Below, piece after piece: positions 23,280 to 51,844 of a stretch of 64,000 nt of DNA (its first letter is position 1; each line of letters starts with the position of its first letter). The notes under the pieces are model-generated. The model was not told the origin of the DNA. It saw only the letters and a list, made by a program, of their open reading frames with translations, and searched no databases. The position numbers and the translations under genes are program-made. Source of the DNA: Chlamydiota bacterium (lineage in GTDB: Bacteria > Auribacterota > JACPWU01); assembly GCA_016196885.1 (NCBI GenBank), contig JACPWU010000021.1, forward strand, positions 3,618 to 67,617, given 5' to 3'.

Positions 23280-23288
23280 AAGGTAACC

Positions 23289-28433: not shown

Positions 28434-28790
28434 TAGCCCACGTTTCATCTGAAAATAGTCTTTAGTTATTCTTATACAATAAGTTATGATGACTTGTAGT
28501 CGCCCGATTCATCGGGCAGCCCCATAAATGGGGCGACTACAAGGGTGATTTTCATCCCCCTTTGTGACGGACAGTCATGGCCGCGCGAGGAACGCCTGAG
28601 TCCGCCTTGGATGCGAGGAAGACGCTCCGTGCCATGTGAGGCGTATTTTACAGTACGTCGAGCACGGCCGACCTCTCTTGCGACGCCAGACGAGGCGGAC
28701 TTGGCGCTCGCAGCAGAAATGTGATGAGAAATGTGGGCCAGAAGAAAGATTTCTCAGTCGGGCATCCCGATGTAGCATCGGGATGCTCTT
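28434..28790. repeat. Composite repeat C1 (~355 bp: arm containing an A-core hairpin pair plus ~160-bp palindromic core)
   Basis: Arm tagccc(a/g)cgtttcatctgaaaatagtcttta...gtagtcgcccgattcatcgggcagccccataaatggggcgactacaagggtgattttcatccccctttgtgac...agtcatggcc is shared with C2 in inverted orientation; the core is shared in direct orientation. Confidence 0.65.
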
Positions 28791-28820
28791 CTTCGAAATG
28801 ACATGAGAGGGAGTTTTTTA

Positions 28821-29603
28821 CTATTTCACGACATTTTGTCGGAGAATATATTCATCCACTTCTCTTCGCGTGAGCTGCCGCGTTTCTCCTACTTTCAAAT
28901 CTCCAATTTCCAAATTTCCAATCGCCACTCGCCGAAGTTTCGAAACCTCTGATCCTACCGCTTCCAGCATCTTACGTATTTGGCGATTTTTCCCTTCCTT
29001 CAGAGTCATTTCAAGCCACGTACTGGCCTCATTTGTTTTTAGAATGTGACACTGACAGGGTTGAGTAAAAGCACCTTTATCCAATTTAACGCCTGAACGA
29101 AGCCTTTTGATTTGATCCTCACTCAATTTTCCCCGAGCCTTGACTTCGTAAGTTTTGGGAATCCCATATTCATGATTCGTCAAAACTTCCCCTAGCTCTG
29201 TGTCGTTTGTGAAAAATAAAAGGCCGGTGGTATTGGCATCCAAGCGCCCCACCGGAAAAACTCGAACGCTTAATTTAGGAAGAAATTGATAGACCGTTGT
29301 TCGGCCTTCAGGATCTTGAGCGGTCGTGATTACATCCAAAGGTTTATTGAGAACGAGGTAAATTTTAACTTGAGACCGGGCAATCTTGCCATCCCATTCA
29401 ATCACATCCTCTTCCACCCACGTTCGATGCTCCGGATCTCTCACCACCCGGTGATTCACCTTCACGCGACCGGCACGAATCCACTGACCTGCCTCACTGC
29501 GAGAAACAATTCCCAATTTCGAAAGGACCCTGGCCAAGCCGTGTCCACCCCTTCTTTCAGGCGTTCTAGATTTTTCTTTGGAATAAAATTTTTTATGCCT
29601 CAT
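28821..29603 (-). CDS. rluB: Pseudouridine synthase, RsuA/RluB family (S4 domain plus catalytic domain)
   Basis: S4-like N-terminus and catalytic-Asp motif RLDANTTGLLFFTND. Confidence 0.75.
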   Translation of the reverse strand: MRHKKFYSKEKSRTPERRGGHGLARVLSKLGIVSRSEAGQWIRAGRVKVNHRVVRDPEHRTWVEEDVIEWDGKIARSQVKIYLVLNKPLDVITTAQDPEGRTTVYQFLPKLSVRVFPVGRLDANTTGLLFFTNDTELGEVLTNHEYGIPKTYEVKARGKLSEDQIKRLRSGVKLDKGAFTQPCQCHILKTNEASTWLEMTLKEGKNRQIRKMLEAVGSEVSKLRRVAIGNLEIGDLKVGETRQLTRREVDEYILRQNVVK

Positions 29604-30573
29604 TTTTTTGACCCGCCGCCTTTCGAAGACGATTCATGATGGCTCGTCCCAATCCTTCTTCTGGGACCCTTTCTGCATCAATTTCCTGAAGTCCTGCATC
29701 ATCCAAATGGTGGAGCGCGGAAAATAAATTTGCAGCTGCCTCTTTAAAATCCCCACTCACAGACAAAATTTCAATATGCCCGTAATGAAGAGAACGTGAA
29801 GGAGCTCGAAAACACAGAAGCCCTATTTTCTCTGAAGCATTTTCTCTATATTGACCTCTTGAAATAAGGTTTACACGGGTTCTGGGCGAATAATGTCGCG
29901 CCATTTGACCTGGGGCTAAAATAGACGAAGGATTTTCAATACCCTCTCTTACAGGGCCAATCACTTTTTCAATTTTTTCAAGCACCCATCCCCCCGGTCT
30001 CAAAAGACAAGGCACCTTTTGGCTGAAATCTATAATCGTGGACTCTACACCGATTGAACAAGGACCGCCATCCAAAATGAGATCAACCTTTTCTCCAATT
30101 TGATCCATCACATGCTGCGCGGTTGTCGGGCTTAAATATTCAAAAGGATTTGCGCTGGGCGCCGCAATCGGACACTTGCTCTGGCGAATCAAATCCAGTG
30201 CGATCGGGTGGTTCGGTATCCGCAGCGCCACAGAAGGAAGTCCGGCCGTCACAATGTCTGGAACGATTTTTTTCTTTGGGAGAATCACCGTCAAAGGGCC
30301 CGGCCAAAACTTCTCCATTAATTTTTTAGCCTTTTCAGGAATAGAAGCAGCCAATGAATCTATTTGAGAGAAATCTGCTACATGAACAATAATGGGGTCC
30401 AATCGAGGCCGATTCTTTACTTCAAAAATTTTCGCCACCGCCATGGGATCCAACGCATTGGCCCCCAAACCATACACGGTTTCCGTTGGAAAAGCGACCA
30501 ATCCACCTTGCTGAATCAAAAGGGCCGCTTGATGAAGAATTTTGGGGGAAGAATTAACCAAATGAACTGTCAT
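29593..30573 (-). CDS. tsaC: L-threonylcarbamoyladenylate synthase (Sua5/YrdC with C-terminal Sua5 domain)
   Basis: YrdC motif AFPTETVYGLGANA; track ORF trimmed to MTVHLVNSS because the 28-aa N-terminal extension is translation of repeat B1. Confidence 0.75.
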   Translation of the reverse strand: MTVHLVNSSPKILHQAALLIQQGGLVAFPTETVYGLGANALDPMAVAKIFEVKNRPRLDPIIVHVADFSQIDSLAASIPEKAKKLMEKFWPGPLTVILPKKKIVPDIVTAGLPSVALRIPNHPIALDLIRQSKCPIAAPSANPFEYLSPTTAQHVMDQIGEKVDLILDGGPCSIGVESTIIDFSQKVPCLLRPGGWVLEKIEKVIGPVREGIENPSSILAPGQMARHYSPRTRVNLISRGQYRENASEKIGLLCFRAPSRSLHYGHIEILSVSGDFKEAAANLFSALHHLDDAGLQEIDAERVPEEGLGRAIMNRLRKAAGQKNEA

Positions 30574-30593
30574 AATAAAATTTTCCTTGAGAA

Positions 30594-30746
30594 GTGGGTG
30601 GTCCGACTGGGGGTCCCCCGACAAGCGCCAGCAGGTGGAGTCAACGGCTTCTAACAATAACCTATCAAGAACTGACCCGACACCGACCCCACAGGGGGGC
30701 TATAACCTCTGTGCCGTTGTCGGGGGTGAGGAGGAACAGGACCCAC
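30594..30746. repeat. Structured element family B, copy B1 (tsaC-sufT intergenic)
   Basis: Shares ccgactgggggtccccc...cgccagcaggtggag...cgaccccacagggg(g)ctataacctctgtgccg...gggggtgaggagg with B2 and B3; helix segments differ between copies but stay complementary. Confidence 0.7.
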
Positions 30747-30755
30747 TTCTCATCT

Positions 30756-31304: not shown

Positions 31305-31323
31305 TCACTCTACCTCCAACAAA

Positions 31324-31472
31324 GCGGGTGTCCCGACTGGGGGTCCCCCACTGTGCGCCAGCAGGTGGAGTCCTACATCTCCTTACTTCCATATGTGACT
31401 TTCCCGACACCGACCCCACAGGGGCTATAACCTCTGTGCCGACAGTGGGGGTGAGGAGGGACAGGCCCCGCT
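31324..31472. repeat. Structured element family B, copy B2 (sufT-sufU intergenic)
   Basis: As B1; terminal helix gcggg/cccgc and internal helix actgtg/cacagt. Confidence 0.7.
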
Positions 31473-31479
31473 ACCTTAA

Positions 31480-31941
31480 TTACACATTATCCTCTGTCGT
31501 CACGGCCTGACCCCTTTTTCCCAGGGCTGCCTTCAAGGTATGCCAAGCCAGCGTGGCACATTTTACCCGTGTGGGATATTCCGAGACACCGGAAAAAACA
31601 GCCAATTTACCCAGTAATTTTAAATCGAAACCAGCGTTTGTCGGACCCGAAAGCATTTTGTGAAAATTTTGGAACAATAGAAGAGCCTCCTGCTTCGTCT
31701 TGCCTTTTACCCCTGTCGTCATCATCGATGCCGAGGATTTCGAAATTGCGCAACCCGATCCTTGAAAACCGATGTCCTGGATTTGATCCCCTTTCATTTG
31801 CAAATAAAGATTCAGACGATCCCCACACAAAGGGTTATAGCCTTCCGCCACATGATCCGCATTTTCAATCGCATGAAAGTTGCGGGGATTTTTGTTATGA
31901 TCCAAAATCATTTCTTGATAGAGTTCATTTAATTCGCTCAT
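31480..31941 (-). CDS. sufU: SufU/IscU-like Fe-S scaffold (NifU N-terminal domain)
   Basis: NPLCGD...GSGCAISKSSASMM...EYPTRVKCATLAWH contains the three conserved Cys. Confidence 0.7.
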   Translation of the reverse strand: MSELNELYQEMILDHNKNPRNFHAIENADHVAEGYNPLCGDRLNLYLQMKGDQIQDIGFQGSGCAISKSSASMMTTGVKGKTKQEALLLFQNFHKMLSGPTNAGFDLKLLGKLAVFSGVSEYPTRVKCATLAWHTLKAALGKRGQAVTTEDNV

Positions 31942-34510: not shown

Positions 34511-34519
34511 AACGCCTCC

Positions 34520-35281: not shown

Positions 35282-35290
35282 GCCCGCCTC

Positions 35291-35329
35291 CAACCTTTGA
35301 ACTTTTGAACCCTTAAACTTTTGAACCTT
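35291..35329. repeat. Tandem-repeat element H1 (GGTTCAAAAGTT units) in the sufB-sufC intergenic region
   Basis: caacctttgaacttttgaacccttaaacttttgaacc. Confidence 0.45.
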
Positions 35330-35332
35330 TTT

Positions 35333-36766: not shown

Positions 36767-36921
36767 AACATCTGCTCCTGACTACCTTTCTAAACTACAA
36801 CACACGCCGCTTCACTTGTCATCTCGAGGAGCGCTTTTTGCGACGAGAGATCTTTCTCTTGAAAATGACAATATAACGCAACAAACTAGACTAAATCACT
36901 CTGATTAAACAACAAAAAAAA

Positions 36922-37368: not shown

Positions 37369-37468
37369 GTTATGATCCTCTTAGCTCATCTTACTAAATC
37401 AGACTCTTTTTGTCCATATTAAAAAATATCAGACATTCAGATATTTTTGTTAACGGATACTGAATAAA
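37369..37468. promoter_or_regulatory. Rrf2-regulator upstream region with three (A/T)ATCAG(A/G) repeats (candidate autoregulatory operator)
   Basis: taaatcagactc, atatcagacattc, aataaatcaggtaaa within 100 bp upstream of the Rrf2 gene start. Confidence 0.3.
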
Positions 37469-38410: not shown

Positions 38411-38498
38411 CCCTCCCTCTGAAAAGAATTCATATGAAAAGAACTCACAAATGATACTATCTTTAAAAAGAGGAGCAAGTCCTTTTTTAAATTTTTAA

Positions 38499-38631
38499 TA
38501 GGCATATGCACTTGATTCCCCTAGTAGTCGCCCGATTCATCGGGCAATCCATGCAAGGGGCACAAGGCTGCCCCATCAATGGGGCGACTACAAATTCTTG
38601 CTATCTGAGGGGAATCAAGTGCATATGCCTA
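38499..38631. mobile_element. MITE family A, copy A2 (133 bp, inverted relative to A1; 8-bp TSD atttttaa), inserted at the left terminus of element B4
   Basis: Near-identical to the reverse complement of A1; flanked by atttttaa on both sides. Confidence 0.75.
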
Positions 38632-38803
38632 ATTTTTAAAAGTGTGTCCTTTATTCATGCGGGTGACACCCAACAGGGTCCCCATCAAGTGCCAGAAGAA
38701 AGAGTCATTTGCATCAGCCATACATCTGGCATCCCTCATCGAGACCGATGCCGTTGATGGGGTGGTTGGGCGGCAGGACCCGCCCCCTTTCCAAAGGACA
38801 CAC
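38632..38803. mobile_element. MITE-like element B4: same outer TIRs as B3 but a different ~110-bp structured core
   Basis: TIR aaaagtgtgtccttt...aaaggacacacttttaaatac; subterminal gcgggtg...cccgcc; internal long-range complement cccaacagggtccccatcaa / ttgatggggtggttggg. Confidence 0.6.
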
Positions 38804-39629: not shown

Positions 39630-39639
39630 GAGGGGTAGA

Positions 39640-39762
39640 AGGTGATATAGATATTCTCTGATAAGGGCAAACTATCCGTAAGGATAGGACGCAAAGCCAT
39701 GGGCCCCTGGGTAGCTAGGGAGGGGGGTCGCCAGGTTGCCGGAGCATAGGCTGAAGAGTCAA
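39640..39762 (+). promoter_or_regulatory. Candidate c-di-GMP-I (GEMM) riboswitch aptamer
   Basis: GGGCAAAC, then 5-bp stem with GUAA (GNRA) tetraloop, then GGACGCAAAGCC, then a second GC-rich hairpin. The junction strings and stem length match the Vibrio cholerae Vc2 aptamer as recalled from memory. Confidence 0.6.
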
Positions 39763-39814: not shown

Positions 39815-39864
39815 ACGTGTTTTAACGTCTTGTGTGTGCATCCGCGTTCAGAATAGGGAGAAGA

Positions 39865-40188
39865 ATGAAAAGGGTCCTGATCTGCCTATTGGGGATGGGT
39901 ATGATGATCGAGGCAATGAGTGGAGCGAACGCCCGAGGGGAGGAAGGAAAAAGGGGGAGGGAAATTTTTGTTCGTTTTAAGGCTGAAGTCTCTCAAGACA
40001 GGATACAGGATCTCTTCAAGGAATACCAATTAGAGGTGATTGAGAAATACCCCGCCATTGAGAATCTTTATTTGTGCAAGGTTCCATTGGATTTGAAAAC
40101 GCAAGCGGTCATTCGAAAATTAGAAAAGGAGGGCGATGTTGCCTATGTAGAGGCAAATCAGAAAGTGGAAGCACTCGAAGTCCGATAG
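39865..40188 (+). CDS. Secreted standalone subtilisin-propeptide (peptidase inhibitor I9)-like protein
   Basis: SD GGGAGAAG; signal peptide MKRVLICLLGMGMMIEAMSGA; EIFVRFKAEV...LYLCKVPLDL...VAYVEANQKV aligns with the two propeptides of the downstream protease. Confidence 0.65.
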   Translation: MKRVLICLLGMGMMIEAMSGANARGEEGKRGREIFVRFKAEVSQDRIQDLFKEYQLEVIEKYPAIENLYLCKVPLDLKTQAVIRKLEKEGDVAYVEANQKVEALEVR

Positions 40189-40229
40189 GGTCGAAGTCGT
40201 AGAGTCATTACCAGAGAGGCCGGGGTTCT

Positions 40230-43200
40230 ATGATGAAGTCCAACTGGATGAAGAGGGGGATTGTGTCATGCATCTTGGGAGTGGGGTTGTGGGGAAGCGC
40301 CAGTCTCTTTTCATTTTCTGATGAAGAAAAGAAATACGCCCCCGATGAATTGCTCGTCCGCTATAAACCAGGGGTTTCGAGTGCCCAAATCCGGCAGTTG
40401 AGAAAGGCCATCCATGCCGAACGTCTCGAGAAGTTTTCCATCAATGATGTGCAGCATTATAAACTCGAGGCCGGTCAGTCTCTTCAAGAAGCTCTTTCAG
40501 AGTTAAAGGGTTCCTCCAAAGTTCTTTACGCAGAACCCAATTATGTTGTGGAGTTAAATCAAACCCCCAACGATCCCGACTTTTCCAAACTCTACGGAAT
40601 GAATAACACCGGCCAGACCGGCGGTACAGCTGACGCCGACATTGATGCCCCCGAGGCTTGGAATACACAGACTGGAAATCAGAACCTCGTGATCGCGATT
40701 ATTGATACGGGCGTGGACTACAACCATCCGGATCTGGCAGCAAATATCTGGACCAATCCCAAGGAAATTGCAGGCAACGGCATAGACGATGACGGCAACG
40801 GTTACGTGGACGATATTCATGGTTGGGATTTTTATAACAAGGACGCCGATCCCATGGATGATCATTACCATGGCACTCACGTAGCGGGCACCATTGCAGG
40901 AGTGGGCAATAACGGCATCGGTGTGACAGGCGTGGTCTGGAAAGCCAAGATCATGGCACTTAAATTCTTGAGCTCGGGTGGATCGGGATACACTTCAGGT
41001 GCGATTTCGGCGATCAATTATGCCACTCAAATGGGCGCAAAAATTTCCAATAACAGCTGGGGGGGCGGGGGCTATTCGCAGGCCTTGAAAGATGCCATCA
41101 CGGCCAATCAGAATGCAGGGGCTTTGTTTGTAGCCGCTGCAGGAAATAGCGGCGTCAATGCAGACACTTCTCCCATGTATCCCGCGGCTTATGACGTGGC
41201 CAATATTATTTCTGTGGCTGCGACGGACGCTAAAGATCAATTGGCCTCTTTTTCAAATTATGGAAAAACCAGCGTGGATTTAGGGGCCCCGGGGGTGAGT
41301 ATTTACAGCACTGCTCCCAACAACACGTATAAAACCTTAAGTGGGACTTCCATGGCAACCCCTCATGTCGCGGGAGCGGTCGCCTTAATCTGGTCTCAAT
41401 TTCCGAGCCTGACGAATCTTCAGGTGAAAGATAAATTGCTCGTCTCCACAGATCCGATTTCAGCCCTGTCTGGAAAAACGGTGAGCGGGGGAAGGCTCAA
41501 CATCAATAATTTTATGGAGAATGACACGACGGCCCCGGCCCCTGTCACTAATTTAGCCACTTCCAGCGTTTCCTATTTTACCACCACACTCACGTGGACA
41601 GCGACGGGAGACGATGGTTTCACAGGACAGGCAAGCACCTATGATTTGCGCTATTCTACGAGTGCCATCACAGAGTCTAATTTTTCCTCGGCCCTTCAGG
41701 CGTCCGGGCTCCCCTCACCTAAGACTTCAGGACAGACAGAGACTTTTAAGGTGACAGGACTTTCTTCCAACACGGCTTATTATTTTGCACTCAAGGTGAA
41801 GGACAACGTGGGAAATACTTCTTCCCTTTCGAATGTGATTTCAGCCACCACCTCTCAGGGAACCACTTTCTACCAGGATAATTTTGAGAATGGCCAGGGA
41901 AGTTGGGTCACAGGAGGAACAAACGGCACGGGTGGAGGGACCTTGTGGCATCTTTCAACCCGTAAATCCAACAGTGCGACCCATTCCTTCTATTATGGCA
42001 GTGAGTCCAAGGGTAATTACAACACAGGACAAGCCAATTATGGTTGGATCACTTCTCCCAAAATTTATTTAACCTCGGCTACCAATTCCACTTTGATTTT
42101 TAACCACTATCTGACGACGGAGAATCTGGCCCCCTATGATGAAGGAAGTGTCAGAATTTCAACAGACGGCGGATCCACTTTTACAACGCTCAACAAATTC
42201 TATTCAACCAGCTCAAAATGGCAACAGGTTTCCGTAGATCTTTCGAAATATGATGGGAAAACCGTCTACATTCAATTTTATTTTACGACGCTGGACGCGC
42301 TCTACAACAGTTATGAAGGTTGGTATGTGGACGATGTGCAGGTGATGGCAGATGGGCAAGGTGACACCACACCTCCTGCCGCGATCAGTAATTTGGCAAT
42401 TTCTTCTCTGGGTCAATATTCCCTGACATTGAACTGGACGGCGACAGGAGACGATGGGAATACGGGAACAGCCTCTTTCTACGATTTACGCTACTCCACG
42501 AGCACCATCACAGATTCCAACTTTTCTTCGGCCGTTCAAGTCTCAGGCCTCTCTTCCCCGAAGGCGGCCGGAAATTCCGAATCCTTTGAAGTGAAGAATC
42601 TTTCCAGTGGAGTCACTTATTATTTTGCGATCAAGGCCACGGACGATCTTTCCAATACCTCCGCTATTTCAAACGGGGTGAATGGAAAAACAAAAACGGG
42701 ACCCAAAATCAGCGTGTCTCCCAGCACCCTTGCGAAAGTCAGTTTGGATGTTGGGAAATCAACCACACAGTCCCTGACGATCCAAAACACAGGCGATGAA
42801 AATTTGACATTTGACATCACAGAAATTCCGACAACCACCGCCAGCAGTGCTGAATCTTCCTCCTCTTTGGAAACGGGATCGAGCGCGTCAGCTGCCTATG
42901 CACCTTCCCAAATTTTGGTGAAATTTAAAGAGGGCCTGTCTGAGGCAGCCATTCATGGACTCGGAGATTCAGTGGACGCAAGAACCGTTAAAATTTATTC
43001 CGACATTGATGTCCATTTGATTGAAACCGCTTCAGGATTGGATGCCCAGGAAATGGCCAGAATGTACCTGGCGAGCGGCTTGGTAGAATATGCAGAACCC
43101 AATTATGTTGTTCAAGCCTTAAGTACCTTCCCCAACGATTCTTCTTTCTCTCAACTCTACGGCCTTCACAACACAGGACAAACGGGGGGAACCGCAGATG

Positions 43201-46200
43201 CGGACATTGACGCCCCTGAGGCCTGGGACACTACAAAGGGGGCAAGCTCGGTCGTGGTGGCAGTGATTGACACGGGTGTAGATTACACACATCCTGACTT
43301 ATCAGCCAACATGTGGACAAACTCAGGAGAAATCCCAAACAATGGATTGGACGATGACGGAGATGGTTATGTGGACGACTATCGAGGATGGGATTTTGTG
43401 AACGAAGACAATGATCCTATGGATGACAATAAGCATGGCACACACGTTTCCGGAACCATTGGTGGAGTTGGAAACAACGGTACAGGCGTCGCCGGTGTTT
43501 GTTGGAACGTCAAAATCATGCCTCTTAAATTCTTAAGTGGGAGTGGGTCTGGATACACCTCGGATGCAGTCGAGGCCGTTCTTTACGCCAATAAAAAAGG
43601 TGCGAATGTGATGAGCAACAGCTGGGGCGGCGGCGGATATTCTCAGGCCCTGTATGACGCTATTAAAGCGGCCGAGGTGAAAGGCATTCTCTTCGTAGCC
43701 GCCGCGGGAAATAGCTCGAGCAACAATGATCAAGTGGCCAATTATCCCTCGAATTACAACATCTCGAACGTCATTGCCGTCGCAGCCACAGATGCGAACG
43801 ATGCCCTGGCCTGGTTTTCAAATTATGGAGCGAACACGGTTCATTTGGGCGCCCCGGGGGTCAGCATCTATAGTACCCTGCCGGGAAACACCTATGGCTC
43901 TTTGAGTGGAACTTCCATGGCGACCCCCCATGTAGCTGGGGCTTGTGCCCTCGTGTGGTCCGCGAATCCTTCCTGGAATTATGCGAAAGTGAAAAATCAG
44001 ATCATGGTGGGCACAGATAAAATTTCGAGCATGAGTGGTAAAACAGTTTCAGGCGGTCGGCTGAATGTTTACAAAGCCCTTCAAGCGGCAGAAACCACGC
44101 CTCCCTCAGCCGTCACCGATTTGTCCAGCTCCATGGTTTCTTTTTCCACCCTTAAACTTAAATGGACGGCAACGGGGGATGATGGCAATACCGGAACAGC
44201 CACCTCTTACGAGATTCGTTATTCTACAAGTTCTATCACGAGTTCTAACTTTAGTTCCGCTACGTTGATCAGCAATACCCCCACACCCAAATCTGCTGGA
44301 GGGGCTGAAGAATTCAACGTCACAGGCCTTTCCCAAAAGACAACTTATTACTTTGCCATGAAAGTGACCGATGATGCCAGCAACACCTCTGGCCTTTCGA
44401 ATGTGACCTCTGCCACCACAGACGAAGCGGTGGTAACCTACTTGGATAGCATGGAAACAGGAGCCGGATGGACGGTGACAGGCTTGTGGCATCTTTCCAC
44501 ACGAAAATCTAACAGCCCCACGCATTCTTTCTATTATGGAGACGAGACCAAAGGAAATTACGATACAGGTTCTACCACCCAAGGGACGCTGACATCCTCT
44601 ACCATCGACCTTTCATCGGGGGTCACGCCTCAACTCTCTTTTCAATATTGGAGAAAAGTGGAGTCGGGAGGGATCTATGACAAAACCTATTTAGAAATTT
44701 CAAAAGACAATGGCTCCAATTGGACCCAGCTTTGGTACAAGAACTCCAGCAACACCTCTGAACAAGCCTGGACCAGTTCTGGACCCTTGGATTTAAGCTC
44801 TTACAAAGGCGCTAAAGTCCTTTTGAGATTTACCTTTGATTCTGTGGATGCCTACTTGAATTTTTATGAAGGATTCTACGTGGATGATGTTCAAATCTTG
44901 GATTCAAAAACAGATTTTAACTGGCTCTCCGTGCAACCAGCAACAGGAACCTTAACAGCCAATCAATCTAGCACCGTGACCTTAACCTACACAGCCGTTT
45001 CTAGCGGAACTTACAAAGGAGCCATTCTGATTAAGAGCAATGACCCTGCCAAACCCTCTACCACCCTTTCTCTAGAGTTGACAGCCACTCAAGACACAAC
45101 AGCCCCCTCCGCCATCAGCAATTTAAAAGTTGCCTCCATTGCCAGCAGCAACACCTCTCTAACCCTGACATGGACAGCGCCAGGCGATGACGACAACGTG
45201 GGAACGGCCAGCTCTTATGAAATTCGCTACTCTACAAGCCTCATAACAGATGCTAATTTCAGCGCGGCCACTTTGGCTCCAAATCCACCCACGCCCCAAG
45301 TCGCGGGAAGCACTGAAACCTTCAGCCTGACAGGGCTCGCCCTTTCACAAAATTATTATTATGTTGCGATCAAGACCCAGGACGATGTGGGGCAAGTTTC
45401 TAGCCTCTCCAATGTGGTCAAGACGAGTGACTTGGATTCCGATGGGGACGGGTTGTGCGACCAAGATGAGTACAGCATGGGCACAGATCCTCTCAAGTCA
45501 GATACAGATTCCGATGGGTTCAGCGATGGCCAGGAAAAATCGATTGGGACGGATCCTGTGAAGAGCACAGATTTCCCAGCCACGATTATTCTGACATGCG
45601 ACAATGCCTATGAAATTTACATCAATGGTGTCTTCAAAGGGAATGACTCTAATTGGACAAACAAAGAAACATATTATGCAAAGTTAGGAGACACCATCGC
45701 CATTAAAGGCATAGATCTCGGCGGCATTGCAAGTCTCCTTTGCCAAATCAGCCATGGAAATAAAATCATGCCTTCCAATTTTCTCTGGAAGGCTTCACCT
45801 CAAGCCGCCTCGGGCTGGACAAATCCAAACTTTGACGACTCTTCTTGGCCAGGTGCAGTAGAACATTTTGCATACGGACATGGGCCCTGGGAACAATGGG
45901 TGAACGGATTTGACGCCAGCAACAATTGGATCTGGACGAATCGGCCGGAGGAACATGATACTGTCTATTTTCGGCGGAAGGTGGACTTTTCACAAAATGC
46001 CCTCTTACGGGTTACGGCAGATAATGCCTTTGAAGCTTGGCTGGATGGTCAATACCTGGGATCCAGCAATGTGTGGCATCTGCCCAAATTTTTTATTGGG
46101 ACTGTCAGTGAAGGCAGCCTCATCGCCCTTCACGGGATAGACCTGGGAGGGATAGGAGGACTGCTTGCCTCTCTTACCTACGTGGACTCGAATGGAAAAA

Positions 46201-47336
46201 GGCAAATGGTAGGAACCAACTCCTCATGGAAAATAAGTACCACATCCTCCTCGGGCTGGCAAAACACAGGCTTTGACGAAAACAGCTGGTCCTCAGCGAC
46301 AGAGTGGGCTGCCTTCGGAAGTGGGGTGTGGGGTTCTTTTGACATGGGTGCCCATTTTTCGAATGCAAGCCAAGCCAAGTGGATTTGGGCCTCGGACCCC
46401 TATTCTATCGATGACATCTATGCGAGAAAAACGATCCTCACCCCCAACGCAACACTCAGCATGACGGCGGACAACAAGTTCAAAGTTTATCACAATGGGA
46501 ACCTCGTTGCCTCCAGCTCCCAATGGTGGTCCCCCGCCGTCGTCGGTCTTAATAATCTCCAAAATGGAGACGTCATTGCTGTGAGGGCCGATGATGAAGG
46601 AGGCATTGCAGCGTTTCTTGCAAAGCTGGACTTTAATGGAACTCAAATCTTCTCAAATACAACATGGAAGGCCTCCACAGGACCTTTCTGGGAAGCAGAC
46701 CTCTCTTGGACGTCAAAAAGCTATGACGACTCGAACTGGACAAGCGCCTTCCCAGTCGGAGGCAACGGAATATCCCCGTGGGGATATTTGTCTGACTGTG
46801 GGAGTGCGCAATGGATTTGGGCCTCATCAGACACGGACGGTGTCAACACCTCTTTTTTTAGGTGGACGGTGGGAACCAACAATACAGAAGTAGGTGTAAC
46901 CTCTTTTCTGGTCAGCGCAGACAATGAATACAAGTTCTACAAGAATGGTGTGCTCATCACATCAGGAAGTCGGTGGTATATGCCGGAGAGCTTCACATGT
47001 TTATTATCCCCTGGGGATGTCATTGCGATCGAGGCAAGAGATTATGGTTATAAAGCGGGACTTTTGCTCTACGCCTCCGGGGCTTATAACCTCGTCTCGG
47101 ACAGCTCTTGGAAAATGAGTACCACCGAACAGTCGGGAGGATGGGCGAGTAAAACATTTGACGACTCTGGCTGGGCTTCAGCCAGTGATCACGGGGCCTA
47201 CGGCATTGCACCTTGGGGAAGCAATGCTTCAGGATTCCCAACCAGTTCTTCAGCTCGTTGGATTTGGGGCCCCAACAATCAGACTGGGGCAACAAACATT
47301 GATTCCCACGTCTTCTTCAGAAAGAAAATTGCTTAA
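40230..47336 (+). CDS. 2368-aa secreted multidomain protein with two complete propeptide(I9)-subtilisin(S8) units, Fn3-like and MAM/lectin-like jelly-roll domains, thrombospondin-type-3-like Ca-binding repeats and four C-terminal ~150-aa beta-sandwich repeats
   Basis: Signal peptide; catalytic triads present twice (IDTGVDY(N/T)HPDL, HGTHV(A/S)GTI, GTSMATPHVAG); repeated LxWTAxGDDGxxGxAxxYxxRYSTSxITxxNFSSA modules; DSDGDG motifs; repeats containing WIW and FDDSxW. Confidence 0.8.
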   Translation: MMKSNWMKRGIVSCILGVGLWGSASLFSFSDEEKKYAPDELLVRYKPGVSSAQIRQLRKAIHAERLEKFSINDVQHYKLEAGQSLQEALSELKGSSKVLYAEPNYVVELNQTPNDPDFSKLYGMNNTGQTGGTADADIDAPEAWNTQTGNQNLVIAIIDTGVDYNHPDLAANIWTNPKEIAGNGIDDDGNGYVDDIHGWDFYNKDADPMDDHYHGTHVAGTIAGVGNNGIGVTGVVWKAKIMALKFLSSGGSGYTSGAISAINYATQMGAKISNNSWGGGGYSQALKDAITANQNAGALFVAAAGNSGVNADTSPMYPAAYDVANIISVAATDAKDQLASFSNYGKTSVDLGAPGVSIYSTAPNNTYKTLSGTSMATPHVAGAVALIWSQFPSLTNLQVKDKLLVSTDPISALSGKTVSGGRLNINNFMENDTTAPAPVTNLATSSVSYFTTTLTWTATGDDGFTGQASTYDLRYSTSAITESNFSSALQASGLPSPKTSGQTETFKVTGLSSNTAYYFALKVKDNVGNTSSLSNVISATTSQGTTFYQDNFENGQGSWVTGGTNGTGGGTLWHLSTRKSNSATHSFYYGSESKGNYNTGQANYGWITSPKIYLTSATNSTLIFNHYLTTENLAPYDEGSVRISTDGGSTFTTLNKFYSTSSKWQQVSVDLSKYDGKTVYIQFYFTTLDALYNSYEGWYVDDVQVMADGQGDTTPPAAISNLAISSLGQYSLTLNWTATGDDGNTGTASFYDLRYSTSTITDSNFSSAVQVSGLSSPKAAGNSESFEVKNLSSGVTYYFAIKATDDLSNTSAISNGVNGKTKTGPKISVSPSTLAKVSLDVGKSTTQSLTIQNTGDENLTFDITEIPTTTASSAESSSSLETGSSASAAYAPSQILVKFKEGLSEAAIHGLGDSVDARTVKIYSDIDVHLIETASGLDAQEMARMYLASGLVEYAEPNYVVQALSTFPNDSSFSQLYGLHNTGQTGGTADADIDAPEAWDTTKGASSVVVAVIDTGVDYTHPDLSANMWTNSGEIPNNGLDDDGDGYVDDYRGWDFVNEDNDPMDDNKHGTHVSGTIGGVGNNGTGVAGVCWNVKIMPLKFLSGSGSGYTSDAVEAVLYANKKGANVMSNSWGGGGYSQALYDAIKAAEVKGILFVAAAGNSSSNNDQVANYPSNYNISNVIAVAATDANDALAWFSNYGANTVHLGAPGVSIYSTLPGNTYGSLSGTSMATPHVAGACALVWSANPSWNYAKVKNQIMVGTDKISSMSGKTVSGGRLNVYKALQAAETTPPSAVTDLSSSMVSFSTLKLKWTATGDDGNTGTATSYEIRYSTSSITSSNFSSATLISNTPTPKSAGGAEEFNVTGLSQKTTYYFAMKVTDDASNTSGLSNVTSATTDEAVVTYLDSMETGAGWTVTGLWHLSTRKSNSPTHSFYYGDETKGNYDTGSTTQGTLTSSTIDLSSGVTPQLSFQYWRKVESGGIYDKTYLEISKDNGSNWTQLWYKNSSNTSEQAWTSSGPLDLSSYKGAKVLLRFTFDSVDAYLNFYEGFYVDDVQILDSKTDFNWLSVQPATGTLTANQSSTVTLTYTAVSSGTYKGAILIKSNDPAKPSTTLSLELTATQDTTAPSAISNLKVASIASSNTSLTLTWTAPGDDDNVGTASSYEIRYSTSLITDANFSAATLAPNPPTPQVAGSTETFSLTGLALSQNYYYVAIKTQDDVGQVSSLSNVVKTSDLDSDGDGLCDQDEYSMGTDPLKSDTDSDGFSDGQEKSIGTDPVKSTDFPATIILTCDNAYEIYINGVFKGNDSNWTNKETYYAKLGDTIAIKGIDLGGIASLLCQISHGNKIMPSNFLWKASPQAASGWTNPNFDDSSWPGAVEHFAYGHGPWEQWVNGFDASNNWIWTNRPEEHDTVYFRRKVDFSQNALLRVTADNAFEAWLDGQYLGSSNVWHLPKFFIGTVSEGSLIALHGIDLGGIGGLLASLTYVDSNGKRQMVGTNSSWKISTTSSSGWQNTGFDENSWSSATEWAAFGSGVWGSFDMGAHFSNASQAKWIWASDPYSIDDIYARKTILTPNATLSMTADNKFKVYHNGNLVASSSQWWSPAVVGLNNLQNGDVIAVRADDEGGIAAFLAKLDFNGTQIFSNTTWKASTGPFWEADLSWTSKSYDDSNWTSAFPVGGNGISPWGYLSDCGSAQWIWASSDTDGVNTSFFRWTVGTNNTEVGVTSFLVSADNEYKFYKNGVLITSGSRWYMPESFTCLLSPGDVIAIEARDYGYKAGLLLYASGAYNLVSDSSWKMSTTEQSGGWASKTFDDSGWASASDHGAYGIAPWGSNASGFPTSSSARWIWGPNNQTGATNIDSHVFFRKKIA

Positions 47337-49305: not shown

Positions 49306-49346
49306 AGTGAATTCTTCAATAAAAAAATATACGGTGGGAAATAATT

Positions 49347-50183
49347 TTATGAGGAGACAGCTTCTACAATTCTCTCCAAATCTTCCACAGAATAATATTC
49401 AATCTCGATTTTGCCCTTTTTCTGACCGTGTTTGATATAAACCTTGGTATGAAGTGCCTCTTCTAACTTTTCTTCCATGGCCTTGAGCTCAGGATTTTTC
49501 TTCAAAATCTTTCGATGAAAAGGTTTTTTCTGAACTTGCACCCTCTCTTCAATTTCGCGAACGGAAAGGCCCCTTTTCACAACCTCTTGCGCCCATTTGA
49601 TCTGGTCTTGCGAGTTGGAAAGCCCCAAAATAGCCTTGGCATGCCCAAAGGTTAAATCCCCTTTTTCCATCATTTCTTGAATTTCTTTGGGGAGACTCAA
49701 AAGGCGAAGAAAGTTGGCTACCGTCGCTCTGTTTTTTCCAACCTTCTCTGCTACAGAGTCTTGAGTCAATTCATAATCCCGCATCAGCCGCATGTAGGCC
49801 CGGGCTTCCTCCATCAGACCTAAATTCTGCCTCTGAATATTCTCAATCAACGCCATTTGCAAAGAGGCTTCATCTGTTGCCTCTTTCACAAGCGCTGGAA
49901 TCCGTGTCCAGCCCAAGGCCTTGGCAGCCCTGAGTCGCCTTTCTCCAGCGATTAATTCATATCGGGATTGATGTCTGCGAACCAAAATAGGTTGAAGAAG
50001 CCCGCTTGTTTTCAATGACTCTTTGAGTTCTATCAAAGAAGCCTCATCAAAATCTTTTCGAGGCTGCTGGGGATTGAGATCTATCCATTGAATATCCACC
50101 GATTCTACTTTCCCATCAGGTCCTGCAATGGGTGTGTTTTGAATTAATGCACCTAACCCCTTGCCTAAAGCTTGCTTAGCCAT
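49347..50183 (-). CDS. parB: Chromosome partitioning protein ParB
   Basis: ParB box GERRLRAAK, HTH, C-terminal dimerisation domain. Confidence 0.85.
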   Translation of the reverse strand: MAKQALGKGLGALIQNTPIAGPDGKVESVDIQWIDLNPQQPRKDFDEASLIELKESLKTSGLLQPILVRRHQSRYELIAGERRLRAAKALGWTRIPALVKEATDEASLQMALIENIQRQNLGLMEEARAYMRLMRDYELTQDSVAEKVGKNRATVANFLRLLSLPKEIQEMMEKGDLTFGHAKAILGLSNSQDQIKWAQEVVKRGLSVREIEERVQVQKKPFHRKILKKNPELKAMEEKLEEALHTKVYIKHGQKKGKIEIEYYSVEDLERIVEAVSS

Positions 50184-50289
50184 AGTTATGCCTCCTCGTT
50201 ATTTTGATTTATCCCCTTCCTCGTCCACACCTGCAAACACTTACCCTGACTCGGTCATGTGGAGAGGGCTCCCCCCTTATTTCAAGTTT

Positions 50290-51162
50290 TTACAAGATTT
50301 TATAGTCCCCGCGGGATAGTTCCCTGTGGAAAAGAGGGCTGGGGGAGTTATGAGTTTTCGTAGTGTCGCCAACCTTTAAGGATTCAAAAGATTGAACCCC
50401 TAAGTTACGTTCCATAAACTCCTTAGCAAACTGTAAATAGCTTTCAGCTCCTATCGAAGCCTCATCATAATAAAGAATCGGTTTCCCGAAGCTGGGGGCT
50501 TCGCTCAGTCGGACACTGCGAGGAATGACTGTTTTGAATATGAACTCTGGGAAATACTTGCGCACCTCTTCCATCACTTGCCGCGTTAAATTGGTTCTCA
50601 AATCAGCCATGGTGAAAAGAATGCCTGCGACTCCCAAATGCGAATTGATATTGGCCCGGACCAGATCCACCGTTTTTAGAAGCTGTGTTAATCCCTCCAA
50701 GGCATAATACTCGCATTGAATCGGCATGAGAACCCCATCAGCCGCTGAAAGGGCATTGATGGTCAGCACATTTAAAGAAGGCGGACAATCAATGATAATG
50801 CATCCATAATTTTCCTTAGCTTTTGCTAAGAGCTTTCTTAAAATATTATTTCTATCCTCGATTTCTAAAAGCTCAATCTCAGCTCCCGTTAAATCCGCAA
50901 CTGAGGGAATCACCTCCATTCCATCCCAAGAAGTGGACACGATTGCTTCGGCTAGAGGCAATTGCTTCACCAAAACACTGTAAATACTCTTTTCAATTTT
51001 ATTTCGATCCAAACCGACGCCACTGGTCGCATTGGCTTGGGGATCCATGTCAATGAGAAGAGTTTTAACTTTTAACCGGGAGAGAGAAGCAGCCAAATTA
51101 ACAGCCGTGGTCGTTTTTCCAACGCCCCCTTTTTGGTTGGTAACCGCAATGATTTTACCCAT
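50290..51162 (-). CDS. parA: Chromosome partitioning ATPase ParA/Soj (C-terminal about 30-aa extension partly encoded by repeat E2)
   Basis: Deviant Walker A KGGVGKTTT; 290 aa versus about 255 typical. Confidence 0.85.
   Translation of the reverse strand: MGKIIAVTNQKGGVGKTTTAVNLAASLSRLKVKTLLIDMDPQANATSGVGLDRNKIEKSIYSVLVKQLPLAEAIVSTSWDGMEVIPSVADLTGAEIELLEIEDRNNILRKLLAKAKENYGCIIIDCPPSLNVLTINALSAADGVLMPIQCEYYALEGLTQLLKTVDLVRANINSHLGVAGILFTMADLRTNLTRQVMEEVRKYFPEFIFKTVIPRSVRLSEAPSFGKPILYYDEASIGAESYLQFAKEFMERNLGVQSFESLKVGDTTKTHNSPSPLFHRELSRGDYKIL
50313..50350. repeat. Repeat E2 inside the 3' extension of parA
   Basis: gggatagttccctgtggaaaagagggctgggggagtta. Confidence 0.5.
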
Positions 51163-51177
51163 AAGGGAATCTCCAGA

Positions 51178-51250
51178 GGACAGAACTCAGAATACAGAAT
51201 AAATACAACTCCTTAATCATTCTGACTTCTGAGTTCTGTCTTCTGTCTTC
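51178..51250. repeat. Palindromic element I2 upstream of parA
   Basis: ggacagaactcagaatacagaata...tcattctgacttctgagttctgtcttctgtc. Confidence 0.5.
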
Positions 51251-51260
51251 CGATCTATTA

Positions 51261-51274
51261 GTTCCACGTGGAAC
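51261..51274. promoter_or_regulatory. Second GTTCCACGTGGAAC palindrome, about 100 bp upstream of parA
   Basis: Perfect 14-bp palindrome identical to the core of the 52536..52567 site. Confidence 0.5.
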
Positions 51275-51396
51275 AAAATAATGATACATGGCTTATACAA
51301 AAGAAAGCAAGATTTTTGATGAGCAAAATTAAGAAATCCGCCTTTTTTATTGTGGGTGACTCTGAAAGGGTCCCTCCAAGTTATTCTGGAAATTGA

Positions 51397-51844
51397 TTGT
51401 AGTCGCCCCATTTATGGGGCCATGCATGGATTGCCCGATAAATCGGGCGACTACGCTTGACGGATCAAGAATACTTGAGCCAAGTCCATATGCCAAAATT
51501 TATTTCTCCGACAGGCTCCTAGCCCGCATTTCTCATCAGATTTCGTCGCGAGTCCGCCTAAGGTGGATTGGAGGGGAGGTTGCACGACTGAGGCCATGCG
51601 AGGCATACCTTACAGTATGTTGAGCGTGGCCGACCGAGTCTGCACGGAGGGACGAAGCGGAATCGGAGAAGAGCGGCAGAAATCTGACGAGAAACGGCCA
51701 TGACTTTCAGTCACAAAGGGGGATGAAAATCACCCTTGTAGTCGCCCCATTTATGGGGCTGCCCGATGAATCGGGCGACTACAAGTAATCATAACTTATT
51801 GTATAAAAATAAGTAAAGACTATTTTCAGATGAAACGCGGGCTA
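51397..51844. repeat. Composite repeat C2 (inverted-arm copy of C1, with an extra A-core hairpin at its left end)
   Basis: Core gcatttctcatcagatttcg...ttacagtatgttgagcgtggccgacc...gcagaaatctgacgagaaac followed by the reverse-complemented C1 arm; overlaps the stop of the hypothetical secreted-protein gene. Confidence 0.65.

What the first reader, a model, noticed from the sequence alone, without database searches (positions are those of the whole stretch)
28434..51844. Inverted composite repeats (~355-450 bp) bracket a 22.6-kb segment (rluB to parA)
C1 (28434..28790) and C2 (51397..51844) share a ~150-bp arm in opposite orientation, including an A-core hairpin pair. They also share a ~160-bp internally palindromic core in direct orientation. 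Inverted repeats of this size flanking rluB-tsaC-suf-desaturase-protease-rsmI-htpX-parAB are substrates for homologous inversion. The odd arm/core geometry suggests a past inversion or rearrangement between copies. The palindromic core, with G.U-compatible mismatches on one strand only, could also be a structured RNA.
Basis: seen in the sequence. Interest (0 to 1): 0.5.

Follow-up and report, generated by a model that had tools for sequence, protein, structure and literature searches.

The report
Two copies of a mosaic mini-transposon
The two repeats are real, but they are two copies of a small non-coding mobile element made of nested hairpins, one of several such families in this genome, and related genomes show that the 23-kb stretch between them has not been flipped.

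Summary
28434-28583 and 51695-51844 are a 150-nt inverted repeat (96%, E 1.6e-55). The adjacent 132-nt GC-rich cores match only in direct orientation (score 40 direct, 10 inverted, shuffles 9.8±1.7).

Each copy is a bounded unit: C1 28436-28738 and C2 51522-51842. Each has ~21-nt terminal inverted repeats found nowhere else in the window, and flanking TA/CA and TA/TA. Each contains a GTAG-headed hairpin doublet (REP/REPIN-like) and a long imperfect palindrome, and has no credible ORF.

The window holds 13 such REP units at 6 sites. It also holds a second 150-nt inverted pair (B elements with perfect 9-10-bp target duplications) interleaved with C1/C2, and a third hairpin family. Inverted bracketing is therefore expected by chance.

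Three related genomes keep gidA-(hyp218)-parA-parB-htpX-rsmI-S8 protease exactly as here, so the C2 junction is ancestral and no C1×C2 inversion is fixed. The closest of these relatives has no C or REP sequence in the hyp218-parA spacer.

A C1×C2 crossover cannot produce the arm/core geometry; a local module flip or a separate arm addition can. The structured-RNA idea has only weak support. Verdict: an ordinary mosaic MITE/BIME-like repeat in an uncultured "Chlamydiae" MAG.

The parts
28436..28738 (+). C1 element proper (303 bp): left terminal repeat, AT-rich 37 nt, REP doublet, 40-nt linker, GC-rich core, right terminal repeat. It lies between convergent genes: the methyltransferase (+, ends 28349) and rluB (-, ends 28821).
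   Evidence: End-to-end alignment with the reverse complement of C2. Terminal-repeat motif search. The ssDNA fold is closed by its termini, z -6.3. Flanking genes.
51522..51842 (-). C2 element proper (321 bp), in the opposite orientation to C1. It lies between the stop codon of hyp218 and the parA upstream region. Its last base supplies the G of the hyp218 TAG stop.
   Evidence: The ssDNA fold is closed by TAGCCCGC/GCGGGCTA, z -6.6. The hyp218-parA spacer of relative GCA_016178055.1 is 260 bp and has no C or REP sequence.
28434..28435 (.). TA immediately outside the C1 left end. The right flank at 28739-28740 is CA.
   Evidence: Read. Possible TA target duplication with one mismatch; this is inferred.
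51520..51521 (.). TA immediately outside one end of C2, matched by TA at 51843-51844 outside the other end.
   Evidence: Read. Possible TA target duplication; this is inferred.
28436..28456 (+). Terminal-repeat motif M, C1 left end: GCCCACGTTTCATCTGAAAAT.
   Evidence: The motif occurs only in C1 and C2 within 64 kb.
28716..28738 (-). Terminal-repeat motif M, C1 right end (reverse complement GCCCACATTTCTCATCACATTTC). It carries the same A variant as the C1 left end.
51522..51544 (+). Motif M1 of C2: GCCCGCATTTCTCATCAGATTTC. It carries the G variant, as does the other C2 end.
51679..51699 (-). Internal motif M2 of C2. With M1 it forms a ~21-nt inverted repeat around the core. C1 lacks this motif.
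   Evidence: It pairs with M1 in the folds.
51822..51842 (-). Motif M3, the outer end of the C2 arm.
28494..28542 (.). REP doublet (REPIN-like) in the C1 arm: GTAGTC-GCCCGATTCATCGGGC-A-GCCCCATAAATGGGGC-GACTAC.
   Evidence: Stem covariation across 28 variants.
51736..51784 (.). REP doublet in the C2 arm.
28584..28715 (+). GC-rich imperfect palindrome (core) of C1. The shared central hairpin is at 28631-28668.
51545..51678 (+). Core of C2, in the same absolute orientation as the C1 core. The shared central hairpin is at 51593-51630.
51397..51500 (.). Separate half B-type element (REP doublet 51399-51454 plus a degenerate B terminal repeat). It is adjacent to C2 and is not part of the C element.
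   Evidence: 85-98% matches to metagenome loci L062 and L064.
28387..28422 (.). Left half of the local palindrome that C1 interrupts. Its partner is 28741-28802, with perfect 11-nt and 10-nt inverted repeats.

Best explanation
C1 and C2 are two copies of a non-coding, non-autonomous mosaic repeat. It is a MITE-like unit of about 300-320 bp with ~21-nt terminal inverted repeats. It appears to have inserted at TA. It carries two nested hairpin modules: a REP doublet (GTAG-headed, REPIN/BIME-like) and a GC-rich imperfect palindrome.

The copies sit in intergenic DNA in opposite orientation by chance. This genome has many small palindromic elements: REP doublets, B elements with target duplications, and the G hairpin family.

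Shown:
- the element boundaries, the terminal repeats and the nested hairpins;
- the absence of coding capacity;
- the absence of C2 from the homologous spacer of a related genome;
- the ancestral gene order across C2.

Inferred:
- mobilisation in trans by a transposase encoded elsewhere;
- TA as the target site;
- that the 'arm inverted / core direct' geometry arose inside the element.

Two routes could give that geometry. The core could have flipped between the inverted M1/M2 repeats, or by hairpin template switching. Alternatively, a young arm module (96% identical between copies) could have joined opposite sides of two older, diverged core palindromes (~70% identical). The second route also explains the unequal divergence, which is significant at p = 1.4e-9.

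If transcribed, the hairpins would most plausibly act as REP and ERIC elements do, as passive mRNA 3'-end or stability structures. The element is not a switch for the 22.6-kb segment.
For: - Repeat geometry.
- Terminal-repeat motif M is present only at the ends of C1 and C2, plus one internal copy in C2. The A/G variant co-varies between the two ends of each copy.
- Whole-element ssDNA folds are closed by the termini, z -6.3 and -6.6.
- Flanks are TA/TA (C2) and TA/CA (C1). Bacterial MITEs typically have terminal inverted repeats, terminal TA and target duplications (PMC2229807).
- There are 13 REP units at 6 sites against 0 expected by chance. The GTAG head plus hairpin matches the REP definition (PMC3479197). 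Doublets in inverse orientation are BIME/REPIN.
- 127 of 155 GTAG-headed candidates keep a 5-bp stem, in 28 stem variants; control heads give about 1.
- B elements in the same window have perfect 10-bp and 9-bp target duplications and form a second, interleaved 150-nt inverted pair.
- No transposase or recombinase appears among the called genes of the window and flanks, and no RAYT-like ORF was found.
- There are no credible ORFs inside the elements and no Rfam family matches.
- Synteny across C2 is conserved in three relatives, and the closest of these has a 260-bp spacer with no C or REP sequence.
- GC skew is negative on both flanks and over most of the segment; the exception is 38-44 kb around the + strand protease gene.
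Against: - Only two full copies were seen, plus one partial arm-like copy at L058 16792-16879. The rest of the MAG could not be scanned, so 'multi-copy mobile element' rests on few instances.
- The TA duplication is imperfect in C1, and a 2-nt match is weak evidence.
- No parent IS with matching ends and no empty site in a close strain could be found. The nearest relatives are only ~56-77% identical in protein.
- Arm and core diverge very unequally (96% versus ~70%, p = 1.4e-9). This is not expected if the whole unit transposed once.
- The wobble pattern of the central hairpin favours the + strand in both copies. That hints at some strand-specific constraint beyond a junk palindrome.
Confidence: 0.7

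Rival explanations
1. The arms are working recombination substrates. The 22.6-kb segment (rluB to parA) inverts, or recently inverted, by homologous recombination between C1 and C2, so the population holds both orientations.
For: The arms are 150 nt at 96% identity with a 77-bp perfect run. The much higher identity of arm than core could reflect gene conversion between the two copies. The left junction (rluB | methyltransferase) is a synteny breakpoint relative to the relatives.
Against: - The right junction, gidA-(hyp218)-parA-parB-htpX-rsmI-S8(-), is identical in three relatives. An inversion would have broken it.
- GC skew has the same sign inside and outside the segment over most of its length.
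- Most genes in the segment and in both flanks are on the - strand, so an inversion would turn about 17 genes, including parAB and the suf operon, against their neighbours.
- No recombinase gene is nearby.
- A C1×C2 crossover cannot generate the observed arm/core geometry.
- An interleaved second inverted pair exists without a matching rearrangement. The suf-Sua5-rluB order is kept in GCA_016178055.1.
Confidence: 0.06
2. The GC-rich core is a structured non-coding RNA, or a cis-acting RNA hairpin, read from the + strand in both copies. The surrounding repeat is only its vehicle.
For: - + strand RNA folds are 11-16 kcal/mol better than - strand folds in both copies.
- The cores keep the same absolute orientation although their host elements are inverted.
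- In the shared central hairpin (28631-28668 / 51593-51630), one pair changed on both sides and four one-sided changes are all wobble-compatible on the + strand.
- The local replication-type skew would predict the opposite bias.
Against: - No Rfam family matches, even at E≤10.
- There are only two copies, ~70% identical with indels. Outside the central hairpin the two folds differ: one long hairpin versus a three-way junction.
- The copies share no upstream promoter-like sequence and no terminator.
- In C2 the + strand is antisense to every neighbouring gene.
- Palindromic DNA can self-correct by template switching, which mimics compensatory change.
- Five events give at best p of about 0.03-0.06.
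Confidence: 0.1
3. The unit is a BIME/REPIN-type array moved as single-stranded DNA by a REP-associated tyrosine transposase (RAYT), not a cut-and-paste MITE. The TA flanks would then be coincidental and the conserved piece is the REP doublet with its flanks.
For: - The best-conserved stretch is the REP doublet and its immediate flanks (77-bp perfect run).
- The REP units have the GTAG head required by RAYTs.
- A third copy on the same contig shares only the doublet plus short flanks.
- RAYT genes exist in MAGs that carry this hairpin (L011, Y1_Tnp E 4.8e-10).
- The same absolute orientation of both cores would fit strand-biased ssDNA mobility.
Against: - No RAYT was found in the window or flanks.
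- The one RAYT found is flanked by a different REP sequence.
- The terminal repeats M are unrelated to the REP hairpin and close the whole element.
- B elements carrying the same REP doublet have classical 9-10-bp target duplications, which ssDNA Y1 transposition does not make.
Confidence: 0.2
4. The geometry is an assembly artefact of a short-read MAG, caused by mis-joining at repeats or palindromes.
For: The source is a metagenome-assembled contig. Independent Logan contigs from three runs break inside or next to the elements, at 28704, 28728 and 51426.
Against: Those independent contigs are 100% identical to the window across rluB, the C1 right end and into the core, and across parA to the B-type doublet. 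The arms and stems contain mismatches, so they are resolvable. The large-scale order agrees with three relatives.
Confidence: 0.03

Closest known systems
REP / BIME / REPIN elements of Enterobacteria and Pseudomonas (mobilised by RAYT, TnpA-REP)
   Same: The arm hairpin pair is made of 22-nt units, each with a 5' GTAG head followed by an imperfect GC-rich palindrome. The units are arranged as inverted doublets with short linkers. They are intergenic, high in copy number, and combined with other motifs into mosaics.
   Different: No associated RAYT could be shown. The same 22-mer occurs in MAGs assigned to 11 phylum-level groups, whereas REPIN-RAYT systems are described as mostly vertically inherited (abstract of 10.1101/2022.05.22.493013). 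Here the doublet is a passenger inside larger elements that have their own terminal repeats (B and C).
Bacterial MITEs with TA ends (Correia/CREE of Neisseria, RUP of S. pneumoniae linked to IS630)
   Same: Non-coding, with terminal inverted repeats, TA at the ends, insertion in intergenic DNA close to gene ends, and a whole-element hairpin fold.
   Different: C is larger than the <200 bp described there. It is GC-rich in its centre, carries a nested REP doublet, has an internal extra copy of the terminal repeat in one copy, and has no identified parent IS.
ERIC/IRU and YPAL/RU-2 long imperfect palindromes of enterobacteria
   Same: These are 127-168-bp imperfect palindromes that are not AT-rich, have internal inverted repeats, insert next to or into regions of dyad symmetry, and occur in either orientation (for YPAL). 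C1 likewise sits in the loop of a pre-existing palindrome.
   Different: There is no sequence similarity. The core here is embedded in a bigger bounded unit. Effects on mRNA were not tested.
Invertible DNA segments bounded by inverted repeats (invertons; large recombination-driven inversions between IS or rRNA copies)
   Same: Inverted repeats flank a segment. In addition, the C2 core is bounded by ~21-nt inverted repeats (M1/M2) and is found in the opposite relative orientation in the other copy.
   Different: There is no recombinase gene nearby. There is no evidence of two orientations at one locus. Synteny shows the 22.6-kb segment in its ancestral orientation.

Membership tests
REP / REPIN (BIME) | Short (about 20-40 nt) imperfect palindromes, intergenic, many copies per genome | tested here: met
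   13 units in 64 kb at 6 sites, against 0 expected by chance. The sites lie between ORFs.
REP / REPIN (BIME) | Conserved GTAG tetranucleotide 5' of the hairpin foot | tested here: met
   All 13 units start GTAG or GCAG. With a GTAG head, 127 of 155 candidates keep the stem; other heads give about 1. Definition taken from PMC3479197.
REP / REPIN (BIME) | [quoted passage not shown] | tested here: met
   All six sites are doublets or a triplet, with linkers of 1 to ~28 nt. The folds show the doublet as a closed two-hairpin unit.
REP / REPIN (BIME) | A cognate single-copy RAYT (Y1_Tnp) gene flanked by the same REPs | not testable with these tools
   None was found in the window, the flanks or the 60+ fetched loci. 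The only RAYT found (L011) is flanked by a different REP.
Bacterial MITE | Terminal inverted repeats | tested here: met
   Motif M is at both ends of C1 and C2 and nowhere else in the window. The termini pair in whole-element folds.
Bacterial MITE | Target-site duplication | tested here: inconclusive
   TA/TA for C2 and TA/CA for C1. Two bases in two copies is weak evidence. By contrast, B elements have perfect 10-bp and 9-bp duplications.
Bacterial MITE | No transposase, small size | tested here: met
   303 and 321 bp. The only ORFs are short, Arg-rich and unrelated between the copies, apart from similarity that follows from the shared nucleotide sequence.
Bacterial MITE | Filled and empty sites, or many dispersed copies | tested here: inconclusive
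   C2 is absent from the homologous spacer of GCA_016178055.1, but that spacer is otherwise unalignable. Two full copies and one partial copy were seen in about 77 kb of the contig.
Bacterial MITE | A parent IS with matching ends | not testable with these tools
   There were no hits for the M motif in IMG/VR.
Invertible segment / recombination-driven inversion | Both orientations observed, or junctions that differ from relatives at both ends | tested here: not met
   The right junction is identical in three relatives. Only the assembled junctions were seen in the independent Logan contigs, which are too short to span the repeats.
Invertible segment / recombination-driven inversion | A site-specific recombinase encoded nearby (for programmed inversion) | tested here: not met
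   The Pfam lists for all called genes of the window and flanks contain none.
Structured RNA family | Match to a curated covariance model | tested here: not met
   Rfam 15 at gathering thresholds on the whole window and at E≤10 on both loci gave only generic hairpin noise.
Structured RNA family | Covariation supporting one structure | tested here: inconclusive
   There are only two sequences. 4 of 29 consensus pairs changed on both sides, and only the central hairpin is convincingly shared.

The most novel reading that the evidence does not exclude
The GC-rich core may be a strand-specific functional hairpin, either an RNA or the single-stranded DNA form of a mobile module. On this reading it is kept in one absolute orientation (the + strand) whichever way its carrier element points. 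That could happen because it flips between the ~21-nt inverted M repeats like a miniature invertible cassette. It could also happen because it is a separate ssDNA-type mobile palindrome whose orientation is tied to replication direction.

Two side observations would fit. All four G-family hairpins lie on the + strand. The same GTAG hairpin is shared across phyla. Together these would point to an undescribed, horizontally spreading hairpin-transposition system in uncultured bacteria.
Probability: 0.08. Interest if true: 0.55.

Novelty: new member of a known kind. Interest (0 to 1): 0.25.

Why it matters
As it stands this matters little. It documents that an uncultured groundwater MAG, labelled Chlamydiae, is packed with nested palindromic repeats. 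It also shows that inverted copies of such repeats should not be read as inversion switches without synteny or read evidence.

It is useful for annotation, because the boundaries and terminal repeats of three element families are now defined.

Two modest leads come out of it. First, a GTAG-headed REP hairpin is shared almost unchanged by MAGs assigned to 11 phylum-level groups, which is at odds with the usual picture of lineage-specific, vertically inherited REP/RAYT pairs. Second, one module sits in opposite relative orientations in two copies of the same element.

Tried and rejected
- Rfam at gathering thresholds and at E≤10 gave nothing but generic hairpin noise.
- Hammerhead idea: CUGAUGAG/CUGACGAG-GAAA strings lie in the terminal repeats, but there is no stem II and no Rfam hit. 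Rejected.
- 6S-like long hairpin: no Rfam hit.
- Metagenome scan for the core centre (TTACAGTAYGTYGAGCRYGGCCGACC): 0 hits.
- Metagenome scan for G-type plus C-type REP doublets: 5 loci carrying B-type or plain doublets and no C arm or core.
- IMG/VR scans for both terminal-repeat variants and for the REP 22-mer: 0 hits.
- BLAST of C1 and C2 against all fetched loci: only the REP doublet is shared.
- RAYT search by motif, and by phmmer with an E. coli YafM sequence recalled from memory: none in the window. One hit in a Stahlbacteria locus was confirmed as Y1_Tnp, but it is flanked by a different REP.
- Recurrent neighbouring proteins next to REP hits: none.
- Small ORFs in the elements: no credible peptide. 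The 67-aa ORF is not on record anywhere.
- Promoter and terminator scans: nothing shared by the two copies.
- Literature search for the hairpin sequence: only chance primer matches.
- Covariance model of the G family: extra hit only in relative L065, and none in the suf operon of GCA_016178055.1. A conserved suf cis-regulator was therefore rejected.

Full report
SOURCE. The window is part of contig JACOUD010000001.1 (121 kb) of MAG GCA_016178005.1. NCBI labels it 'Chlamydiae bacterium'. G+C is 45.8%.

The finding's interval runs from the gap between a class-I methyltransferase (+, 27576-28349) and rluB (-, 28821-29603) to the gap between parA (-, 50290-51162) and a 218-aa protein with no Pfam match, called hyp218 here (-, 51842-52498). 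Between these lie:
- Sua5/tsaC;
- a SufT-like protein, NifU, sufSDCB and Rrf2;
- a desaturase;
- a zinc-ribbon protein;
- a c-di-GMP riboswitch;
- a 2368-aa S8 protease (+);
- rsmI, htpX and parB.

BLAST and the repeat finder both give 28434-28583 versus 51844-51695: 150 nt, 96%, inverted, E 1.6e-55. There are six mismatches and a 77-bp perfect run.

Next to each arm lies a GC-rich imperfect palindrome. The two cores align only in direct orientation. The local score is 40 direct and 10 inverted, while shuffled sequences give 9.8±1.7 with a maximum of 18. So the odd geometry, arms inverted and cores direct, is genuine.

As RNA, the + strand folds better than the - strand in both copies.

2. ANATOMY.
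A global alignment of C1 with the reverse complement of C2 also matches at the far end, GAAAT.TGATGAGAAATG.GGGC. That tail is the inverted partner of the outermost ~21 nt of the arm, GCCC[A/G]CGTTTCATCTGAAAAT. I call this motif M.

A fuzzy search finds M only at five places in 64 kb:
- both ends of C1 (28436-28456 +, 28716-28738 -);
- both ends of C2 (51522-51544 +, 51822-51842 -);
- one internal copy in C2 (51679-51699 -).

Within each copy the two ends share the same variant: GCCCAC in C1 and GCCCGC in C2. Folded as ssDNA, each whole element is closed by its termini and contains two sub-hairpins, the REP doublet and the core. The z-scores are -6.3 and -6.6.

Immediately outside the ends are TA...CA (C1) and TA...TA (C2). 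In C2, the TA plus the element's terminal base make the TAG stop of hyp218.

The units are therefore C1 = 28436-28738 (303 bp) and C2 = 51522-51842 (321 bp). The size difference is mainly due to the internal M copy.

C1 sits in the loop of a local palindrome that is unique in the window, with perfect 11-nt and 10-nt inverted repeats at 28387-28422 / 28741-28802.

It is a half B-type element with its own REP doublet, matching metagenome loci at 85-98%.

The elements contain no credible ORFs. No Rfam family matches, even at E≤10. No promoter-like or terminator-like site is shared by the copies.

3. THE 'A-CORE HAIRPIN PAIR' IS A REP DOUBLET.
The motif GTAGTCGCCCSATTNATSGGGC occurs 13 times in the window, against 0 expected. 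The units form six inverted doublets or triplets, at 14412, 21659, 28496, 38524, 51399 and 51738.

Each unit is a GTAG head followed by a hairpin. The two units of a doublet differ by compensating changes: GCCCG...CGGGC versus GCCCC...GGGGC.

REPs are defined by this combination of a 5' GTAG and an imperfect palindrome. BIMEs and REPINs are two REPs in inverse orientation with a linker (PMC3479197; PMC3337134).

In about 560 kb of fetched DNA, 127 of 155 GTAG-headed candidates keep a 5-bp stem, in 28 different stem variants. Control heads give about 1. The loci were collected with the main variant, but the other variants were not selected for.

The MAGs are labelled Stahlbacteria, WOR-3, Zixiibacteriota, Poribacteria, Planctomycetota, Nitrospirae, Nitrospinota, Elusimicrobiota, Doudnabacteria, Actinomycetota and Proteobacteria.

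No protein recurs next to these hits. There are no hits in IMG/VR. No RAYT lies in the window or its flanks. One RAYT in a Stahlbacteria locus was confirmed as Y1_Tnp, but it is flanked by a different GTAG-REP.

4. THE GENOME IS FULL OF SUCH ELEMENTS, SO BRACKETING IS EXPECTED.
A second inverted pair of 150 nt at 94% (21618-21767 / 38483-38632) interleaves with C1/C2. These are B elements of 131 bp, with terminal repeats AGGCATATGCACTTGATTCCCCT and a central REP doublet.

They have perfect target duplications:
- B1: ACTTTCTTTT at 21610-21619 and 21751-21760;
- B2: AATTTTTAA.

A third family of GC-rich hairpins, the G elements, has four copies. A partial arm-like copy (REP doublet plus short flanks, 84-92%) lies 3.5 kb left of the window, next to tRNA genes. 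Any two copies of a family have an even chance of being inverted.

5. NO INVERSION.
ParA homologues of 68-77% identity led to three relatives: GCA_964640155.1, GCA_016178055.1 and a contig from SRR22387960. All three have T2SSF-rnpA-yidC-...-trmE-...-gidA-(hyp218)-parA-parB-htpX-rsmI followed by the S8 protease on the opposite strand. This is the window's order and orientation.

The junction across C2 is therefore ancestral. A fixed C1×C2 inversion would have separated parA from gidA/hyp218.

In GCA_016178055.1 the hyp218-parA spacer is 260 bp without any C or REP sequence. It is 679 bp in the window, and the coding alignment ends exactly at the stop codon where the C2 arm begins.

The left junction does vary. 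Two relatives have methyltransferase(-)|rluB(+) in divergent arrangement. GCA_016178055.1 has suf-Sua5-rluB followed by dnaN. C1 therefore lies at a rearrangement-prone spot, but its partner breakpoint is not C2.

GC skew is negative on both flanks and over most of the segment; it turns weakly positive only around the + strand protease gene at 38-44 kb. Most genes inside and outside are on the - strand.

6. WHY A C1×C2 CROSSOVER CANNOT EXPLAIN THE GEOMETRY (inference).
Write a copy as arm-sL-loop-sR-tail. A crossover between inverted homologous parts of two inverted copies rebuilds arm-sL-loop-sR-tail at both sites, with swapped parts. The loop never changes orientation relative to its own arm.

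The geometry needs a change inside one copy. Two routes fit.
(a) A flip of the core between the inverted M1/M2 repeats that bound it in C2, or between the hairpin's own stems, followed by loss of the internal M in C1.
(b) A young arm module joined to opposite sides of two older core palindromes.

Route (b) also explains why the arm is 96% identical and the core ~70% (Fisher p = 1.4e-9). Gene conversion of the arms is a third possibility. I cannot decide between these routes.

7. THE RNA IDEA.
Only one sub-structure is clearly shared, a 15-bp central hairpin (28631-28668 / 51593-51630). It has one pair changed on both sides and four one-sided changes, all wobble-compatible on the + strand.

The local skew implies deamination mainly on the - strand (inference). 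That would favour the opposite pattern, so there is a faint hint of + strand constraint.

Against this:
- there are only two copies;
- the overall folds differ;
- no transcription signals are shared;
- the C2 + strand is antisense to all its neighbours;
- palindromes can self-correct by template switching.
I rate this reading at about 0.1.

8. VERDICT.
This is a real repeat with an ordinary explanation. C1 and C2 are two copies of a mosaic, non-autonomous, hairpin-rich intergenic element. It is MITE-like, with TA ends, and carries a REPIN-like doublet. It lies in a repeat-rich genome.

It is a new member of a known kind. Membership in REP/REPIN is met for three sequence features and untestable for the RAYT. 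Membership in MITEs is met for terminal repeats, small size and lack of coding capacity, and inconclusive for target duplication and copy number.

The inversion reading fails the synteny test. Read-level data would be needed to exclude rare inversion or core flipping.

Noticed in passing
window 14412-14513, 21659-21726, 28496-28540, 38524-38591, 51399-51454, 51738-51782; loci L007-L064: The 22-nt GTAG-headed hairpin GTAGTCGCCCSATTNATSGGGC occurs unchanged in at least 51 loci of MAGs assigned to 11 phylum-level groups, including three complete Poribacteria chromosomes. Partner hairpins show compensated stem changes. There are no hits in IMG/VR. Such breadth is unusual for REP sequences, which are described as lineage-specific and vertically inherited.
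   Followed up: partly
window 21620-21750 and 38500-38630 (partial copy 14374-14521): B elements are 131-bp MITEs with terminal repeats AGGCATATGCACTTGATTCCCCT, a central REP doublet, and perfect 10-bp (ACTTTCTTTT) and 9-bp (AATTTTTAA) target duplications. The two copies form a 150-nt, 94% inverted pair interleaved with C1/C2. Related copies occur in L010, L060, L062, L064 and L067.
   Followed up: partly
window 30592-30755, 31322-31480, 38657-38792, 59485-59642; L065 7782-7872: A third family of GC-rich long hairpins (G elements), with all four copies on the + strand. Two lie inside the suf operon spacers. Two are flanked by inverted GTATTTAAAAGTGTGTCCTTT repeats. 11 of 36 consensus pairs show compensatory change. 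A covariance model also hits a shorter copy between trmE and gidA in a related genome, but finds nothing in the suf operon of GCA_016178055.1.
   Followed up: partly
window 39657-39744 (+): A c-di-GMP-I-GGC riboswitch (67.4 bits, E 9e-14) lies upstream of a small Fervidolysin-N-pro-like ORF (39832-40188) and the 2368-aa S8 protease (40230-47336). This suggests c-di-GMP control of a giant secreted protease.
   Followed up: no
window 51261-51274: A parS-like palindrome GTTCCACGTGGAAC lies about 100 bp upstream of parA. The same 14-mer is present upstream of parA in all three relatives examined (L065, L067, L069).
   Followed up: partly
L058 16690-17090 (contig region about 3.5 kb left of the window): The 3' end of a tRNA gene (…CGAATCCCGCTGGGGTCGCATTTCCCT) is repeated about 310 bp downstream. 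A REP doublet and a GC-rich stretch lie between the repeats, and a second direct repeat (AAAAGTGATCCTGTGATTTTGCTGC) is also present. This looks like the scar of an integration at a tRNA.
   Followed up: no
window 28821-29603 and 27576-28349 versus L070, L071, L072: The rluB/methyltransferase neighbourhood is a synteny breakpoint. The two genes are adjacent and divergent in two relatives and convergent here. In GCA_016178055.1, rluB is followed by dnaN instead.
   Followed up: partly
window 17334-17381, 23182-23282, 35293-35330, 51174-51249, 57203-57240; L058 16400-16690: Many spacers carry short tandem 7-8-nt AT-rich units (for example TTCAAAGG/GTTCAAAA and CAGAAGT/CAGAATT), often as small palindromes around gene starts and tRNA genes.
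   Followed up: no
L011 1503-2048 (-) and flanks 1430-1500, 2050-2120: A RAYT-like Y1_Tnp gene in a Stahlbacteria MAG is flanked on both sides by GTAG-headed hairpins of a different sequence (GGAGTAGGGCGTTTACGCCC…). That genome therefore carries at least two REP families.
   Followed up: partly
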